A DNA stretch of 40,284 nt, from the NCBI GenBank assembly GCA_937870865.1, contig CALMZY010000133.1:1-40284 (forward strand). Reading direction: 5' to 3'. Below the pieces are notes generated by a model. The model ran no database searches, had not been told where the DNA came from, and saw only the letters and a list, made by a program, of their open reading frames with translations. Shown here piece after piece: positions 12,915 through 18,390 of the stretch (positions are counted from its first letter, which is position 1; every line of letters begins with the position of its first letter). The stretch comes from an uncultured Lentisphaerota bacterium. GTDB taxonomy: Bacteria; Verrucomicrobiota; Kiritimatiellia; CAIQIC01; JAGNIJ01. The translations under genes were made by a program, and so were the position numbers.

Positions 12915-13859
12915 ATGAGACGTTTCATATCAGTGCTGATGGCCGTTGCCGCGGGTGCGGCGGTTGCGTCCGCCGAACCGATCCGCGTCGCGCTCATGGA
13001 CTTCCAGGATCAGACGGGCATGAAATCCGATGCCGATCTTGGCGGCGGCATCGCGCCGTCCGCCCTCGCGGGCAAGGGCGTGTTCCTTCTCGCCGAACAA
13101 CTGGTCGGCAAGGAGGGCTTCACCCTCGTGGATCGCCGCGACTTCATGGACCAGATGGAGAAGCTGCAGCCGAAGGACATGGGCGAGAAGACCCCGACCA
13201 AGCCCTCGTTCATCCAGGCGGCGCAGGCCCTGAACACCGATGTCGTGCTGCGCGGCAGCCTGCTGGGGTTCTCGACCGGGAAAAAGGTCGTCGACCAGGG
13301 CGGCTACAAGACCGAGTTTTCGACGGCCTCGCTGCGCGTGGGCATTGAGGCGCTGGATTCCGTGGACGGGACCGTCGTGGCGATGGCGAACGGCGTTGCG
13401 GACGGGAACTTCCGCCAGACGGCCGCCAGCTACACGGTCATGTCCGAGGAAGACGCGATCGGCCTGATGCAGAAGGCCATCGCCCAGGCGCTGCCCAACA
13501 TCGAAAACGCTCTTCAGACGCGGCTCTCCAAGCTCGCGAGCCGGCCGAAGATCAAGCTGAGCGTGAGCACGTCCGCCGACCCCGCGCTGATCGAGATTGA
13601 CGGCATCCTGGTCGGCACCTCGCCGGTCAAGGGCCTGGATATCTACCAGGGCGATCACGTGCTGACGATCGGCAAGCCCGGCTACCGTGACATCACCAAG
13701 CGCATCCTGTTCGAGAAGAACACCGAGATTGAAGTGCCGATGATGCGCACGGAACTGTCCGCCGAGGAAATGAAGGAAGTCCTTGAAAAGGCGCGGCTGG
13801 ACATCATTTCGACGGACGGCGTCATAAAACCCGGGCTGATCATCAAGACCGTGGACTAA
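12915..13859 (+). CDS. Secreted PEGA-domain protein with an N-terminal CsgG/FlgO-like alpha/beta domain
   Basis: GGAGG SD and signal peptide. IRVALMDF...FTLVDRR...DVVLRGS pattern. PEGA motif DPALIEIDGILVGTSP...GDHVLTIGKPGY. Confidence 0.78.
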   Translation: MRRFISVLMAVAAGAAVASAEPIRVALMDFQDQTGMKSDADLGGGIAPSALAGKGVFLLAEQLVGKEGFTLVDRRDFMDQMEKLQPKDMGEKTPTKPSFIQAAQALNTDVVLRGSLLGFSTGKKVVDQGGYKTEFSTASLRVGIEALDSVDGTVVAMANGVADGNFRQTAASYTVMSEEDAIGLMQKAIAQALPNIENALQTRLSKLASRPKIKLSVSTSADPALIEIDGILVGTSPVKGLDIYQGDHVLTIGKPGYRDITKRILFEKNTEIEVPMMRTELSAEEMKEVLEKARLDIISTDGVIKPGLIIKTVD

Positions 13860-13892
13860 GGGCTAGAATAATCTGCCGGTTTGAAGTATTTA

Positions 13893-13930
13893 TTCGCCGG
13901 GGCGTGAAGGCGCCCCGGCGAACTGTTTTT
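13893..13930 (+). terminator. Rho-independent terminator
   Basis: 12-bp stem TTCGCCGGGGCG/CGCCCCGGCGAA followed by CTGTTTTT. Confidence 0.7.
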
Positions 13931-13937
13931 GCGGGAT

Positions 13938-14483
13938 ATGATGTCTTCGTTGCTAGCGTTTCTGCACCACATCCTCACGAACCTCGGATTCGTGCTGGTC
14001 TGGGTGATGTGTCTCGTGGGCCTCCTTCTCTCGTGTCTGTCCATTTCGGGGACATGGCTGGTGGTCGGCGCGACCCTGCTTTCGATGCTGCTCGTCGGTT
14101 CGGGCTTTCCGGGATTCGGAACGGTTCTCCTGATGATCTGGGTCGCGATCTGCGTCGAGGTGGTCGAGTACGTCGCCGGCGTGTGGGGCGTCAAAAACCG
14201 CGGCGGTTCGAACTGGGCGGGCTTGGCGGCTCTGGTCGGGGGCGTGGCCGGGTTGATCCTTGGCACGGCGATTCCGGTGCCGGTCCTTGGCAGTCTGCTG
14301 GGGATGACCGCCGGCAGTTTCGGTTTTGTGTACGGCGTCGAGCGTTACCGCTTGAAACGGGCCTCGCCGGCCGTCCATATTGCCCTCGGCGCGGTGGTCG
14401 CGCGGTTCTTCGTGGTGCTCTTGAAGGTCGGCGTCACGCTCGGGATGATGGCATGGCTCGCAATCGGCTTGGCGGCAAAATGA
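13938..14483 (+). CDS. DUF456 (YqgC-like) integral membrane protein
   Basis: Several TM segments and the family pattern GTWLV...EYVAGVWGVKNRGGS...GGVAGLILG...PVPVLGSLLG. Confidence 0.82.
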   Translation: MMSSLLAFLHHILTNLGFVLVWVMCLVGLLLSCLSISGTWLVVGATLLSMLLVGSGFPGFGTVLLMIWVAICVEVVEYVAGVWGVKNRGGSNWAGLAALVGGVAGLILGTAIPVPVLGSLLGMTAGSFGFVYGVERYRLKRASPAVHIALGAVVARFFVVLLKVGVTLGMMAWLAIGLAAK

Positions 14484-16390
14484 GCGGCGCGTTTTTTCCA
14501 AGCCTTGGAAAAAAATCTGTTGTTGTTTCCAAGGCTTGGAAAATCCTTCTCGCAAGCTCCCTCCTCGCGATGACCGCGCCGGCCGAAAATCTCCGTCCGA
14601 TCCTCGGGACCCACGAGCAGGCGCGCCTGGAAGATGCGCTGCGCGGCATGGAGATGACCGGGGTGGATCTGGGTTTCGGAAAGGACTACGGCAAGCCGCA
14701 GGTCGTTCTCCAGCGCGCGCGCCGGCTTCTCTCGGAACCGCTCGGACTGCCGGCGATGGCGGACGAGATCCTTGCGACGTTCCAGCCGAATTGCCCGCCC
14801 GCCGTCTGGCTGGAGTCCGCCAGCCTGCTCGAGGTGAAACTGACCGAGCCGGCGGCCGCGCCGCCTGCGGGCGCAAGTTCCCTGACCAACGGCCTCGCCT
14901 CCTTCCTGTCGGGAGCGCGCCGGGCCGAACAACGGCTGACGCAGGCCTTTGGCTCCCTGACCGGCGACGAGAAGCGGTACGTCGCGGCGGCTTTCTTCGC
15001 GGGGACGTTCAACGCGGAGGACAAGGCCGACGTGCGGGTTGACCTTCTCTCCGTCGGGGTGTCGACGTCCGAAATCCAGCGGGCGATCATGGAGAGCCTG
15101 GACATCGATCCCGGGCCGGCGTCGTCGAACTTTCTCGCCGTTCTGGGGAAAGTGGACATCGCGGCGCTGCTGGACGCGGGGCGCGTATTTCAGCAAGCGG
15201 TGTATGAAGCGCGCGAGGCCGCGAAGTCCGTTCACGATTGGCCTGAGAAACCCACGCGCGTCGATTCGATCCTGTTCGGCACGCGGGGCGACGATGTGTA
15301 CACGAACGCGGAACTGCTGATCCTGGATCCGGGCGGAGACGACACCTACTGCGGGGACGCGGGAAGCGCGAACGGTTTGCAGGGCAGGCTGCTCGCCGCG
15401 ATCGTGGACCTTGCGGGCAACGACCGCTACATAGGCGATCGGGTGTTGGGGCCCGGCTCCGCCGTGTTTGGCGCGGCGGTGTTGCTGGACGGTGCGGGCG
15501 ACGACCTGTACCGCGCGAAATACACCGGCCAGGCGTCCGCGTTTTTCGGCGCGAGCTGGCTGGAGGACCTGACGGGAAGCGATGTCTATCGCGCGCAGGC
15601 GCACTCGCAGGCCGCCGGGTACGCGGGGTTCGGATATCTGCGTGACGGCGCCGGCAACGATGTGTACGACGTCGGGTTCGCGGGTCAGGCGTACGCGGGG
15701 GTCATGGGCGTGGGCGTCCTGGTGGATGAGGCGGGGAATGACCGCTATCTCGCGGGCGGGGTCGAGCACGACTACGAGCGCAACGACGACCGGTACGTTT
15801 CGATGGCGCAGGGACTGGCGATCGGCATGCGGCCGTACGCGGGCGGCGGTGTCGCCGCATTGATCGATCTCGAAGGCAACGACACGTACACGGCCGACGT
15901 GTTCGGGCAGGGGGTCAGCTACTGGTATTCCGTCGGCATGCTGCTGGATGTCGCGGGCGACGACACGTACTCGATGTACCAATACGGGCAGGGTTCCGGC
16001 ATCCATCTCAGCTCCGGCCTTCTGGCCGACGGCGGCGGCAAGGATGTTTACACCGGCGGCGTGCTGGTGCAGGGCAACGCACACGATTACGGGGTCGGGA
16101 TGCTGTTCGAGCAGGGCGGGGACGACACGTACACCGCGAACCAGCACGCGCAGGGCCGGGCGATCAACAACGCGCTCGGGATTCTCGTGGATTCCGCCGG
16201 CGACGACTCCTATTTCGGGCGGCAGACCGATGAGTGCCAGGGCATCGGCAACGACGCGGGCGAGCGCGAGTACGGGAGCCTGGCGGTGCTGATGGACCTG
16301 GCGGGCAGGGACGTCTACTCCTGCGGCGCGACGAACGGGTGCCGGATGACGAGGCCGGATTTCGGGATTATTTATGACGATCAGCCCTGA
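14480..16390 (+). CDS. Secreted protein with ~13 DxxGxDxY repeats (RTX-like Ca-binding beta-roll/solenoid)
   Basis: ATGA coupling with the DUF456 stop at 14480. Signal peptide ending AMTAPA. Repeats such as VDLAGNDRY, LDGAGDDLY and IDLEGNDTY at ~26-aa spacing. Confidence 0.78.
   Translation: MSGAFFPSLGKKSVVVSKAWKILLASSLLAMTAPAENLRPILGTHEQARLEDALRGMEMTGVDLGFGKDYGKPQVVLQRARRLLSEPLGLPAMADEILATFQPNCPPAVWLESASLLEVKLTEPAAAPPAGASSLTNGLASFLSGARRAEQRLTQAFGSLTGDEKRYVAAAFFAGTFNAEDKADVRVDLLSVGVSTSEIQRAIMESLDIDPGPASSNFLAVLGKVDIAALLDAGRVFQQAVYEAREAAKSVHDWPEKPTRVDSILFGTRGDDVYTNAELLILDPGGDDTYCGDAGSANGLQGRLLAAIVDLAGNDRYIGDRVLGPGSAVFGAAVLLDGAGDDLYRAKYTGQASAFFGASWLEDLTGSDVYRAQAHSQAAGYAGFGYLRDGAGNDVYDVGFAGQAYAGVMGVGVLVDEAGNDRYLAGGVEHDYERNDDRYVSMAQGLAIGMRPYAGGGVAALIDLEGNDTYTADVFGQGVSYWYSVGMLLDVAGDDTYSMYQYGQGSGIHLSSGLLADGGGKDVYTGGVLVQGNAHDYGVGMLFEQGGDDTYTANQHAQGRAINNALGILVDSAGDDSYFGRQTDECQGIGNDAGEREYGSLAVLMDLAGRDVYSCGATNGCRMTRPDFGIIYDDQP
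14492..14543. repeat. Pair of TTCCAA-N3-TTGGAA palindromes in inverted orientation, inside the CDS N-terminus
   Basis: TTTTTTCCAAGCCTTGGAAAAAA (14492-14514) and TTTCCAAGGCTTGGAAA (14526-14542). The second is the exact reverse complement of the core of the first. Confidence 0.8.
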
Positions 16391-17063
16391 TTTTGTTGCC
16401 GCAAAGAGGCGCAAGAGGACACAAGGGAGGAATGTTTCCCTGTGTGTCTTCTTGAGCCTCTTTGCGGCCAACGTTTTTTCCGGAGGGCCGCCGTCCGACG
16501 ACGAGTTGATCTTCAACCTTCAGCGTTACGGCAACACGCCGGAGAAGCGCGAGGCCAAGGCGCGCTCGCGCGAGATCCTAGTCCGGCGCGGCCCCGACGC
16601 CCTGCGCCTCCTGATGGGGCGGGTCCACCTGGAGAACGTGATGATCTCGGTTGAGGCGGAGAATATGGTGCGGACGATGGACACGCAGGAGGTCGCGTCG
16701 GTCCTCTCCGGGTTCCTCGCCGACGCGCATCCCCGGACGCGCAAGCTGGCGGCGTACTGGCTGGGTTTTCACGACACGCCGGAGTACGCGGCCCGGGTTT
16801 ACCCTCTTCTGGAAGACGACGAAACGGCTGGGGCGGCGATTCGCACGCTGGGCAAGTGGCGGGACCGTGACGCGATCCCGAAGATCGTCCCGTTCCTTTC
16901 GCACGAGAAGGAAGTCCGGCGGATCGCGGCGGTCAACGCCTTGCGCGACATCGGCGACGCGTCCGCGATCCCGGAACTGGAGCCTCTGCTCGACGACCGC
17001 TATTTCACCGTTCGCAAAGCGGCGGAACGCGCCCTCGCGAAACTCCGCGAGTCACGGCCGTAA
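16374..17063 (+). CDS. HEAT/PBS-lyase repeat protein, probably exported
   Basis: Repeats [34 protein letters not shown] and [12 protein letters not shown]. Overlaps the upstream gene end by 17 nt. Confidence 0.8.
16398..16468. repeat. Miniature inverted-repeat element inside the CDS N-terminus
   Basis: GCCGCAAAGAGGCGCAAGAGGACACAAGGGA / TCCCTGTGTGTCTTCTTGAGCCTCTTTGCGGC: 2 mismatches, 1 indel and an 8-nt loop. Confidence 0.85.
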
Positions 17064-17089
17064 TGTCCATCTGCGATCACTCTTTGTCT

Positions 17090-17117
17090 TTGACACGCCG
17101 CGCTCCTGATGTATCTT
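17090..17117 (+). promoter_or_regulatory. Sigma70-type promoter for mscL and the DUF481 gene
   Basis: TTGACA-N16-TATCTT. Confidence 0.55.
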
Positions 17118-17161
17118 CAAAAGCCGCTGGCCAGATGGGCCATAACAACACGGAGGATCAT

Positions 17162-17566
17162 ATGGGCAACTGGGTCAAGGAATTCAAAGAGTTCGCCGTC
17201 AAGGGGAACATGGTCGACATGGCCGTCGGTATCATCATCGGCGGCGCGTTCGGCAAGATCGTCTCGTCGCTGGTCAACGACGTCCTGATGCCGCCCCTGG
17301 GCATGCTGATGGGCGGCGTGGATTTCTCCGACAAGGTGGTCACGCTGAAGGAGGCCGTTGAAAACGCCCCCGCCGTTCAGCTCAAGTACGGCATGTTCAT
17401 CAACAACATCATCGACTTCACCATCGTGGCGTTCGCCGTGTTTCTTCTGGTGAAGGGCATCAACCAGTTGAAGAAGAAGGAAGCGGCCGCCCCGTCGACG
17501 CCTCCGGCGCCTTCGGCGCAGGAAGTGCTGCTGGGCGAAATCCGCGACATCCTGAAGACGAAATAA
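17162..17566 (+). CDS. mscL: Large-conductance mechanosensitive channel
   Basis: [37 protein letters not shown] and [16 protein letters not shown] before ATG 17162. Confidence 0.96.
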
Positions 17567-17582
17567 CCGCAAGGAGAACATC

Positions 17583-18332
17583 ATGATGAGAATTGTATCT
17601 GCACTGATTGCCGTTCTGCTGGCCGCCGCGCTGTCCGCGCAGGCGGAGGAATCCGCCGGGGCCAAGTGGAGCACGAGCGCGAACGCGGGGCTGAACCTGA
17701 CGCGCGGAAACAGCCGGACCACGGCGGGCAACGCCAGCATCGTTTCCGAGCGCAAAGGCGACGCGCATGAAGTCACGCTGGGCGTCGAGGGCAACTACGG
17801 CCAGAGCGAGCAGACGGATGCGGACGGCGGGACGGAAATGAAGACCACCGTCCAGAACGAGAAGGGGTATGCCAAGTACCGCTACCTGTTCACGGACCGC
17901 GACTACGCCTACATGAACGGCGAACTCAGCCAGGACAAGATTGCGGATATCAAGTACCGGCTGATCGTCGGTCCCGGCCTCGGCCGCTACTGGATCAAGA
18001 GCGACAAGAACACGCTCGGAACGGAACTCGGTATCTCCTGGATCAAGGAAAAGATCAGCGAGGACGAAGGCGATCGCTTTGCCCTGCGTTTCGCGGAGAA
18101 GTACGAGTTGAAGATCAGCGACACGGCGAAGCTGTGGGAAAGCGTGGAGTACCTCCCCGCCATCGATGACTTCGAGAATTACCTGGTCAACGGCGAAATC
18201 GGCGTTGAGGCGGCCATGAACTCGAAGCTCAGCCTGCGCATCGTGGCCCAGGACAAGTACAACAACGTTCCGGCGGACGGCAAGGAGAAGAACGACTTCA
18301 CCGTAACCGCCGGCATCGGGTACAAGCTGTAA
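17583..18332 (+). CDS. DUF481 (YdiY-like) outer-membrane beta-barrel protein
   Basis: Signal peptide, GLNLTRGNS, GPGLGRY, amphipathic beta strands and terminal GIGYKL. AAGGAG SD. Confidence 0.88.
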   Translation: MMRIVSALIAVLLAAALSAQAEESAGAKWSTSANAGLNLTRGNSRTTAGNASIVSERKGDAHEVTLGVEGNYGQSEQTDADGGTEMKTTVQNEKGYAKYRYLFTDRDYAYMNGELSQDKIADIKYRLIVGPGLGRYWIKSDKNTLGTELGISWIKEKISEDEGDRFALRFAEKYELKISDTAKLWESVEYLPAIDDFENYLVNGEIGVEAAMNSKLSLRIVAQDKYNNVPADGKEKNDFTVTAGIGYKL

Positions 18333-18350: not shown

Positions 18351-18390
18351 AAGGCCGGGCATCGGCTGCCGATGCCCGGCCTTTTCCTTT
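18351..18390 (+). terminator. Rho-independent terminator
   Basis: 15-bp stem AAGGCCGGGCATCGG/CCGATGCCCGGCCTT followed by TTCCTTT. Confidence 0.8.

What the first reader, a model, noticed from the sequence alone, without database searches (positions are those of the whole stretch)
16374..16490. A palindromic DNA element whose two arms encode a signal peptide
Seen: a 71-bp near-perfect inverted repeat (16398-16468) lies in frame at the start of the HEAT gene. The purine-rich left arm reads [10 protein letters not shown] (basic n-region) and its pyrimidine-rich complement reads [11 protein letters not shown] (hydrophobic h-region), followed by NVFS-GG. Inference: an A/G-rich arm and its complement automatically give K/R codons followed by F/L/V/C codons, so this kind of mini-element could create or remodel an export signal on insertion. 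That might have let a formerly fused HEAT domain be exported separately.
Basis: partly seen in the sequence, partly recalled or inferred. Interest (0 to 1): 0.72.

Follow-up and report, generated by a model that had tools for sequence, protein, structure and literature searches.

The report
Repeat hairpin translated as signal peptide
A small hairpin-forming DNA repeat that usually lies between genes in these wastewater and sediment bacteria sits here at the start of a gene and is very probably read as its export signal, one arm giving the charged head and the mirror arm the greasy core.

Summary
The palindrome is real: 26-nt arms, 92% complementary, RNA fold -60.8 kcal/mol, z -9.1. It starts 4 nt after the stop of the upstream repeat-protein gene and lies in frame in codons 9-32 of the HEAT gene.

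Comparison supports translation. Apart from seven fusions to the upstream protein, the orthologues examined in Kiritimatiellia MAGs show a signal-peptide-like N-terminus in this slot by my reading. Five distinct loci in two genera keep the same palindrome open in frame, and two more keep only the hydrophobic arm. Three natural haplotypes differ by 7-15 substitutions and no indel.

The arm motif is a low-copy dispersed repeat, and its other copies here are extragenic.

Its history does not: the palindromic forms nest among ordinary-signal forms, so the element remodelled an existing signal rather than freeing a fused domain.

[quoted passage not shown] This scan has noted similar cases in other genomes. 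I could not run SignalP and found no RNA or proteome data.

The parts
14480..16390 (+). Upstream gene: a 636-aa repeat protein with no Pfam or PDB match. It has its own signal-like N-terminus, and its stop codon is at 16388-16390.
   Evidence: ORF and candidate starts. No Pfam family and no PDB sequence match. Its C-terminal motif is conserved just before the HEAT gene in orthologous loci.
16374..16376 (+). Probable ATG start of the HEAT gene, overlapping the upstream gene by 17 nt.
   Evidence: It is the first in-frame start of the ORF. The same start and the following residues recur in the same-genus locus L002/L021 and in L065 and L066. In the sister genus the ATG overlaps the upstream stop codon and follows a Shine-Dalgarno-like purine stretch.
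16398..16423 (+). Left, purine-rich arm, translated as the basic n-region of the signal peptide.
   Evidence: for the arm; n-region net charge +5.
16424..16442 (+). Centre of the palindrome: an inner stem and a 4-nt loop.
   Evidence: Folds.
16443..16468 (+). Right, pyrimidine-rich arm, translated as the hydrophobic h-region.
   Evidence: for the arm; a 15-residue uncharged stretch with mean Kyte-Doolittle hydropathy 2.23. This arm alone is retained in L049 and L065.
16475..16480 (+). Run of six T one base after the extended stem. The geometry resembles a terminator, and the run also encodes part of the c-region.
   Evidence: Present in L002/L021 and shortened in L066. In L065 the T-run is shortened and no hairpin remains. 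Absent in the sister genus.
16374..16481 (+). Inferred coding sequence of the signal peptide, about 36 codons. The cleavage site was not predicted by any tool.
   Evidence: Rule-based features. The position matches the signal-like N-termini of the orthologues.
16374..17063 (+). HEAT-repeat protein gene, 229 aa as a precursor.
   Evidence: The mature part from 16506 scores +0.34 per codon on a genome-trained codon score.
14494..14543 (+). A second palindrome from a different, abundant repeat family, lying in the predicted n-region of the upstream gene.
   Evidence: Stem 21 with 20 matches. There is no in-frame start between it and the h-region. Relatives show a similar arrangement.

Best explanation
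A member of a low-copy, dispersed family of hairpin repeats landed or formed directly behind the stop codon of the upstream gene. The arms of this family are short purine-rich units and their complements. Because the HEAT gene is translationally coupled and starts at that very spot, the element lies inside its first codons.

In the one frame that gives a signal-like peptide, the purine-rich arm reads as Lys/Arg codons, which give the n-region. The complementary arm reads as Phe/Leu/Val/Cys/Ser codons, which give the h-region. The element now supplies the Sec signal peptide of an exported HEAT protein and has replaced an older, ordinary signal.

Shown: the hairpin, the repeat family, the conservation of the frame, and the signal-like features.

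Inferred: translation from 16374, export and cleavage, and the order of events.

The hairpin itself looks dispensable. It has decayed in two lineages and in one haplotype, while the hydrophobic arm's coding stays.
For: 1. The slot encodes a signal peptide across the family. I scored 10 orthologous loci, including the window's own. All have a net positive n-region (+2 to +5) and an uncharged h-region of 11-19 residues with mean hydropathy 2.15-3.02, directly before the conserved mature N-terminus. The wider sets of 41 and 19 loci show the same by my inspection, apart from the fused forms.

2. Seven rows are fused to the upstream protein, which has its own signal. The HEAT domain is therefore extracytoplasmic in every architecture, and in this genome only the palindrome-coded N-terminus can provide export.

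3. The frame is kept through the palindrome in L001, L021, L066, L023 and L024. L021 is shorter by exactly one codon.

4. In the sister genus the ATG lies directly at the left arm, overlaps the upstream stop codon and follows a Shine-Dalgarno-like stretch.

5. Contigs from four metagenome runs of four studies carry three haplotypes with 0, 7 and 15 substitutions in 16406-16481. None has an indel or a stop codon. Eight of 16 substitutions are synonymous in the HEAT frame, against 2 and 4 in the other frames. The replacements keep the basic and hydrophobic character.

6. L049 and L065 have lost the left arm (fold z -1.2 and -0.1) but keep the right arm's coding as the h-region.

7. It is a repeat family. 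The 18-nt arm motif with up to 2 mismatches occurs 9 times in this genome, against 1 for the reversed control. Over 21 related genomes it occurs 57 times against 14.
Against: - I could run no signal-peptide predictor and had no RNA or proteome data. Export is inferred from rule-based features and orthology.
- Codon usage in the palindrome looks non-coding: -0.18 per codon against +0.34 in the mature part. My crude caller starts the coding core at 16446.
- The hairpin followed by six T looks like an intrinsic terminator in this genus.
- An in-frame TTG at 16506 could start a protein without a signal.
- The excess of synonymous changes is only suggestive: the null mean is 5.1 and P(>=8) = 0.078.
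- Copy number is low, only 2 in the 97%-complete same-genus genome G001. Nothing shows mobility, so 'element' may overstate it.
- Gene contexts of the other copies rest on my own rough gene calls.
Confidence: 0.75

Rival explanations
1. The hairpin is an untranslated intercistronic RNA element, either a terminator/attenuator or an mRNA stabiliser like classical REPs. The HEAT protein then starts downstream, for example at the TTG at 16506, and the open frame through the palindrome is incidental.
For: The stem is followed one base later by six T. The other family copies are extragenic, and several lie just after stop codons. The palindrome's codon score is -0.18 per codon. Palindromes of purine and pyrimidine units contain few stop codons anyway; 81% of random placements of the observed substitutions create no stop.
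Against: - The orthologues scored all have a signal, and the unfused loci look the same on inspection. Fused forms ride on the upstream protein's signal. A start downstream would leave this protein in the cytoplasm.
- The frame is kept in five distinct palindromic loci, including a one-codon length difference, and in three haplotypes.
- There is no ATG or GTG between the palindrome and the mature domain here.
- In the sister genus a Shine-Dalgarno-like stretch and an ATG lie upstream of the palindrome, not downstream.
- The T-run is not conserved outside the genus.
- This rival does not exclude translation. The RNA may do both.
Confidence: 0.12
2. One reading: the HEAT domain was formerly fused to the upstream repeat protein, and insertion of the palindrome created a stop/start junction and a new export signal, which let it be exported on its own.
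For: Fused forms are real and recurrent: 7 of 55 tree rows (L025, L050, L051, L052, L054, L057, L060) have one open frame through both proteins. One of them, L025, is from the same taxonomic family and sits in an unresolved polytomy near the palindromic clade.
Against: - 38 of 55 rows are split genes with ordinary signal peptides, and they surround the palindromic clade.
- Fused rows are scattered: 6 changes on the tree, and at least 2 forced by starred branches.
- The palindromic clade (8 rows, SH-aLRT 89) includes one row with an ordinary signal, L070.
- The tree is unrooted, made by the quick method from about 200 columns, and 21 of 51 inner branches are weak. Polarity is therefore not proven either way.
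Confidence: 0.08
3. No element was inserted. The palindrome grew in place inside an existing signal-peptide coding region, for example by template switching between arms (quasi-palindrome correction). The similar motifs elsewhere are then a low-complexity sequence class rather than copies of one element.
For: Copy number is low and no transposase is linked. Y1_Tnp genes exist, but none of the three loci carries the motif nearby. Copies share only the arm motif, not a common interior. I saw no direct target duplication in the flanks. The palindrome region is a mutation hotspot: in one 401-nt contig, 15 of 16 differences fall in 76 nt (Fisher P 6e-11). One haplotype makes the stem more perfect, including a G-C to A-T double change.
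Against: The same 18-nt motif recurs well above its reversed control in several genera (57 against 14). It forms comparable inverted pairs at unrelated extragenic sites. Different palindrome families occupy the same slot in L037/L012 and L068, and one lies at or just upstream of it in L061. That is easier to explain by repeated arrival of ready-made hairpins.
Confidence: 0.15

Closest known systems
Rickettsia palindromic elements (RPEs). Source: passages of the review PMC10969869 read. The original papers, Ogata et al. 2000 and 2002, were seen only as references there.
   Same: A family of small palindromic repeats found in frame inside protein-coding genes, translated as part of the host protein without destroying it.
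   Different: RPEs are about 150 bp and insert at many sites within unrelated genes, and each family encodes a conserved peptide. Here the palindrome is about 75-80 bp and only this copy of its family is coding in this genome. Its peptide works as a targeting signal through composition, basic then hydrophobic, rather than as an internal insert.
[quoted passage not shown] Source: Delihas 2007, PMC2759123, passages read.
   Same: A small MITE-like intergenic repeat is fused in frame to the start of an ORF and contributes to a predicted signal peptide. Homologues elsewhere have unrelated signal sequences.
   Different: In that case a 168-bp repeat contributes part of the signal, in a single species, on SignalP evidence only. 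Here both arms of one hairpin give the n- and h-regions. The arrangement is inherited across at least two genera, with decayed half-forms in a third genus and in one metagenomic relative of this genus, and other palindrome families fill the same slot in other lineages.
REP/BIME extragenic palindromes. Source: PMC3733652, abstract seen in the listing. The rest is general knowledge, recalled.
   Same: Short dispersed repeats that occur singly or as inverted pairs in either orientation, mostly extragenic, often near gene ends, and able to form stem-loops.
   Different: A single arm here is not itself a palindrome. I saw no GTAG or CGTC tag at the arm ends by eye. Copy number is far lower, and no link to a RAYT-type transposase was found.
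[quoted passage not shown] Source: PMC2996958, abstract read.
   Same: Coding DNA with dyad symmetry, associated with membrane-targeted proteins.
   Different: PARCELs are tandem 25-residue protein domains inside ORFs and are spread by horizontal transfer. They are not a single hairpin that supplies a signal peptide.

Membership tests
Sec-type (signal peptidase I) signal peptide | Positively charged n-region at the N-terminus | tested here: met
   a 20-residue n-region with net charge +5. The nine other loci scored range from +2 to +5.
Sec-type (signal peptidase I) signal peptide | Uninterrupted hydrophobic h-region of roughly 7-15 or more residues | tested here: met
   15 uncharged residues with mean Kyte-Doolittle hydropathy 2.23, inside the 2.15-3.02 range of all ten loci scored.
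Sec-type (signal peptidase I) signal peptide | c-region with small residues at -3 and -1, and a predicted cleavage site | tested here: inconclusive
   Small residues follow the h-region, but no SignalP-type predictor was available, so no site was scored.
Sec-type (signal peptidase I) signal peptide | Export and cleavage shown experimentally | not testable with these tools
   No RNA holder was listed and no proteome data were available.
REP / BIME | Many dispersed, mostly extragenic copies | tested here: inconclusive
   The copies are dispersed and extragenic, but there are few: 9 motif hits against 1 for the control in G000, and 2 in the 97%-complete G001. G000 is only 76% complete in 388 contigs, so repeats may be under-assembled.
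REP / BIME | Each unit is itself an imperfect palindrome with a conserved GTAG or CGTC tag | tested here: not met
   A single arm does not fold on itself, and no such tag is visible at the arm ends in the 13 aligned copies. This was checked by eye. The tag definition comes from the abstract of PMC3733652.
REP / BIME | Association with a RAYT (Y1 transposase) gene flanked by the repeats | tested here: not met
   PF01797 gives 2 hits over the cut-off in G000. The motif model finds nothing better than E 4.7 in those three loci.
MITE | Terminal inverted repeats plus a direct target-site duplication, and copies sharing the whole element | tested here: not met
   The arms could pass as terminal inverted repeats. 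However, the flanks extend the inverted symmetry rather than repeating directly, and other copies share only the arm motif.
RPE-like in-frame coding palindromes | A member of a repeat family lying in frame in a functional ORF | tested here: met
RPE-like in-frame coding palindromes | Most copies are intragenic and encode a conserved peptide | tested here: not met
   By my rough gene calls, the other copies in G000 are extragenic or touch only the last codons of an open frame.
Intrinsic terminator | Stable stem directly followed by a U-tract | tested here: inconclusive
   The stem plus six T one base later is present here and in L002/L021. The scan tool flagged only the inner stem. The T-run is absent in the sister genus, and no transcript ends were available.

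The most novel reading that the evidence does not exclude
Purine/pyrimidine hairpin repeats may act as ready-made signal-peptide cassettes. They tend to sit right behind stop codons, so at tightly coupled gene junctions they fall into the first codons of the next gene. Because one arm reads as Lys/Arg and its complement as Phe/Leu/Val/Cys, they can replace or rebuild export signals again and again.

In this one gene family, the slot or the sequence just upstream of it is occupied by up to four different palindrome families in different lineages. A second family lies in the n-region of the neighbouring gene. The palindrome is also a local mutation hotspot.

Together with the similar cases that this scan noted in other phyla (unchecked), this would be a general and so far barely described route of signal-peptide turnover in bacteria.
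Probability: 0.4. Interest if true: 0.7.

Novelty: new variant of a known kind. Interest (0 to 1): 0.5.

Why it matters
Signal peptides evolve fast and their origins are rarely traceable. Here the source is visible. A generic genomic hairpin repeat supplies both the charged and the hydrophobic part of an export signal, simply because complementary strands of a purine-rich repeat encode those two residue classes.

The case comes with a natural series: ordinary signal, full palindrome, half palindrome, other palindromes, and fused gene. It also comes with population haplotypes, so it offers a test bed for how selfish or structural repeats are taken into proteins.

It is also a practical warning for annotation. 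Gene callers tend to start such genes after the hairpin and so miss the signal; my own crude caller did.

Tried and rejected
- SignalP or any comparable predictor was not available. I used only rule-based features.
I redid it from stored loci by coordinates.
- RNA evidence: no RNA holder was listed among 23 runs, so nothing can be said on expression or transcript ends. The four runs laid were contigs only, and some pieces do not span the whole stretch.
- Terminator scan: it flagged only the inner stem 16424-16441, not the whole hairpin. The tool counts at most 20 pairs and loops of 3-8.
- Link to a Y1/RAYT transposase: none found.
- Pfam and PDB sequence searches for the upstream protein gave nothing.
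- One search failed on wrong coordinates and was corrected.
- Genome-wide scan for other hairpins translated as signals. Of 246 hairpins with a stem of 16 or more, 142 were intergenic, 69 lay in the open frame 5' of a coding core, and 35 lay inside cores. By eye, only the one at 16396-16470 encodes both the n- and h-region. In most of the 69 an obvious start codon follows the hairpin. The gene calls are my own crude ones.
- Covariation of the stem: 85.4% of cells are paired against 39-52% when slid, and 5 of 26 pairs change on both sides. However, 14-36 of 500 shuffles reach the observed values, and there are only 6 related sequences. This is suggestive only.
- My ungapped hairpin score missed the bulged hairpin of L021 (score 7), so I relied on folds instead. 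In one search my cut for L037 clipped its right arm (z -1.1). The full stem is seen.
- Literature: searches found no paper describing both arms of one repeat hairpin encoding a whole signal peptide. The library lacks most subscription journals, so this is not proof of absence.
Full report
**Observation**

The inverted repeat exists as described. Its arms are 16398-16423 and 16443-16468, 26 nt each, 92% complementary and 19 nt apart. With an inner stem and a short outer extension, the RNA hairpin spans about 16394-16473. It folds at -60.8 kcal/mol against -28.2 +/- 3.6 for shuffles, z -9.1, with 0 of 200 shuffles as good.

The hairpin lies in the frame of the ORF 16374-17063. Residues 147-222 of that ORF match Pfam HEAT_2 at E 5.8e-20. 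The upstream 636-aa repeat protein has no Pfam or PDB match. It ends at 16390, only 4 nt before the hairpin base, and the ATG at 16374 overlaps it by 17 nt. Six T follow the stem after one base.

**Organism and repeat family**

The window is contig C133 of a 2.95-Mb, 388-contig, 76%-complete genome with 62% G+C. Record titles of related loci name Kiritimatiellia MAGs, variously labelled Verrucomicrobiota or Lentisphaerota.

The outer part of the arm is a repeated motif:
- A profile built from 13 copies finds 14 places at E < 0.01. Twelve of these are seeds and match by construction; the thirteenth seed scores E 0.021. The new places are on C159 and C143.
- The 18-nt motif with up to 2 mismatches occurs 9 times in G000 against 1 for the reversed control. 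Over 21 related genomes it occurs 57 times against 14. The 97%-complete same-genus genome G001 has only 2.
- Copies occur singly or as inverted pairs in either orientation.

By my own rough gene calls, the other copies in G000 are extragenic:
- four lie in a gap between two convergent frames on C143;
- three lie between divergent frames (C233, C26, C95);
- three lie just after a stop codon (C302, C159, C115);
- one lies 12 nt before a start (C263);
- one pair lies upstream of a gene (C149);
- one touches the last codons of a frame (C387).

I found no link to the Y1 transposase genes of the genome and no target duplication. This is a low-copy REP-like family whose mobility is not shown.

**Is it translated?**

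I collected orthologous loci from related genomes, from GTDB species genomes and from metagenomes. In the loci examined, the HEAT gene follows the conserved C-terminus of the upstream protein directly.

All ten loci that I scored, the window's own among them, have a basic n-region (net +2 to +5) and an uncharged h-region of 11-19 residues just before the conserved mature N-terminus. The window's values are +5, 15 residues and mean hydropathy 2.23.

Seven loci are instead one open frame with the upstream protein, which carries its own signal-like N-terminus. So the HEAT domain is outside the cytoplasm in every architecture. In this genome the palindrome-coded N-terminus is the only candidate signal. 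The only in-frame start between the palindrome and the mature domain is a TTG at 16506.

The same palindrome, in the same frame, is present in the following loci, with fold z-scores (loci):
- L021 (= L002), same genus: z -3.6. It is exactly one codon shorter.
- L066, a 74%-identical metagenomic relative: z -4.2.
- L023 and L024, the two species of a sister genus: z -4.9 and -4.4.

In that sister genus the ATG sits directly at the left arm, overlaps the upstream stop codon and follows a Shine-Dalgarno-like stretch.

Two lineages, L049 and L065, have lost the left arm (z -1.2 and -0.1). They keep the right arm's coding as the h-region. This suggests that the peptide is under selection and the hairpin is not.

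**Population data**

Nineteen DNA runs from 10 studies (wastewater, sediment, river) hold the stretch. None is on record as RNA. Contigs of four runs from four studies show three haplotypes of the palindrome, with 0, 7 and 15 substitutions within 16406-16481 and no indels.

In the one contig that spans all 401 nt, 15 of 16 differences fall in those 76 nt (Fisher P 6e-11). Both variant haplotypes stay open and signal-like. Eight of 16 substitutions are synonymous in the HEAT frame, against 2 and 4 in the other frames. The null mean is 5.1 and P = 0.078, so this is only suggestive.

One haplotype keeps the stem (-54.0 kcal/mol), with a G-C to A-T double change. The other weakens it (-36.8, against -57.9 for the reference in the same cut).

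Across six orthologues, 85.4% of stem cells pair against 39-52% when slid, and 5 of 26 pairs change on both sides. The shuffle control is not decisive, with 14-36 of 500 shuffles reaching the observed values.

**Evidence against translation**

- Codon usage in the palindrome is non-coding-like: -0.18 per codon against +0.34 in the mature part.
- The stem plus T-run resembles a terminator in this genus, though the T-run is absent in the sister genus.
- I could run no signal-peptide predictor, and there are no expression data.

I put translation as a signal peptide at about 0.75. An RNA role is not excluded and could coexist with translation.

**History**

I built a quick-method IQ-TREE tree of 55 HEAT rows: L001, L021-L062 without L022, and 13 metagenome loci.

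Rows left out:
- L002-L020;
- L022, L063 and L064;
- L067, L069, L071, L075, L076, L080-L082 and L085-L092.

These were duplicates, partial matches or paralogues.

The tree puts the five full and two half palindromic forms, plus one ordinary-signal row (L070), in one group of 8 (SH-aLRT 89). That group is nested among rows with ordinary signals (38 of 55). The seven fused rows are scattered. The tree is unrooted and weakly resolved, with 21 of 51 inner branches open.

The simplest reading is that an ordinary signal was remodelled by the palindrome once, in the ancestor of these genera.

Different palindromes occupy the same slot in L037/L012 and L068 (z -4.1). Another lies at or just upstream of it in L061 (z -2.8). 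That points to repeated capture of hairpins at this coupled junction.

**How general is it in this genome?**

Of 246 hairpins with a stem of at least 16, 142 are intergenic, 69 lie in the open frame 5' of a coding core and 35 lie inside cores. By eye, only this one encodes both the n- and h-region of a signal. The palindrome at 14494-14543, from another abundant family, lies in the n-region of the upstream gene.

**Comparison with what is known**

In-frame palindromic repeats are known from Rickettsia (RPEs; review PMC10969869, passages read). [quoted passage not shown]

Earlier notes of this scan describe similar repeat-hairpin signals in other phyla. I did not check those notes.

I therefore class this as a new variant of a known kind. 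It differs in four ways:
- both arms of one hairpin give the whole signal;
- it has been inherited across at least two genera, with half-forms retained in a third genus and in one metagenomic relative of this genus;
- other palindrome families have filled the same slot in parallel;
- the palindrome is a local hotspot of substitution.

Noticed in passing
window 14494-14543, and about 20 further sites in G000 (for example C386:27604-27649, C177:10403-10454, C379:2472-2521): The most abundant hairpin family in this genome is a different palindrome, about 50 nt long with a stem of 16-24. It usually sits a few bases upstream of gene starts, so it may be a promoter or 5'-UTR element. At 14494-14543 it lies inside the predicted n-region of the upstream repeat protein, with no in-frame start between it and the h-region. 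Relatives show the same arrangement.
   Followed up: partly
window 16406-16481: The palindrome is a substitution hotspot among natural populations. In one contig, 15 of 16 differences over 401 nt fall in these 76 nt. There are no indels, and one haplotype makes the stem more perfect. This could reflect quasi-palindrome template switching or conversion from another copy. The cause is unexplained.
   Followed up: partly
L025 (= L007), L050, L051, L052, L054, L057, L060: In seven loci the upstream repeat protein and the HEAT protein form one continuous open frame without an internal signal. On the tree these fusions are scattered, so fusion or fission seems to have happened more than once. The linker of L060 is itself a purine-rich repeat read in frame.
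   Followed up: partly
G000 C240:8300-8351, C265:2952-3000, C375:333-384: Copies of the abundant promoter-proximal palindrome family appear to lie in frame inside the coding cores of three genes, as RPEs do. They could also be errors of my crude gene caller.
   Followed up: no
G000 C263:1054-1160; also L098 (G001) and L100 (G002): A single arm of the motif lies about 12 nt upstream of the start of a gene that looks to me like a pseudouridine synthase (not searched). It is kept at the same place in three species of the genus. In G000 a long hairpin of another repeat family sits next to it.
   Followed up: no
window 13893-13922 and 18351-18383: Two further strong hairpins. The first has a 13-bp G+C-rich stem followed by a T-run, lies after the PEGA-domain gene and looks like a terminator. 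The second is a perfect 16-bp palindrome with a 1-nt loop between the DUF481 gene and the next gene.
   Followed up: no
window 12915-18332: The neighbourhood is rich in envelope proteins: a PEGA-domain protein with a signal peptide, the repeat protein plus HEAT pair, MscL, and a DUF481 outer-membrane beta-barrel. The repeat protein plus HEAT pair is conserved across Kiritimatiellia, but its function is unknown.
   Followed up: no
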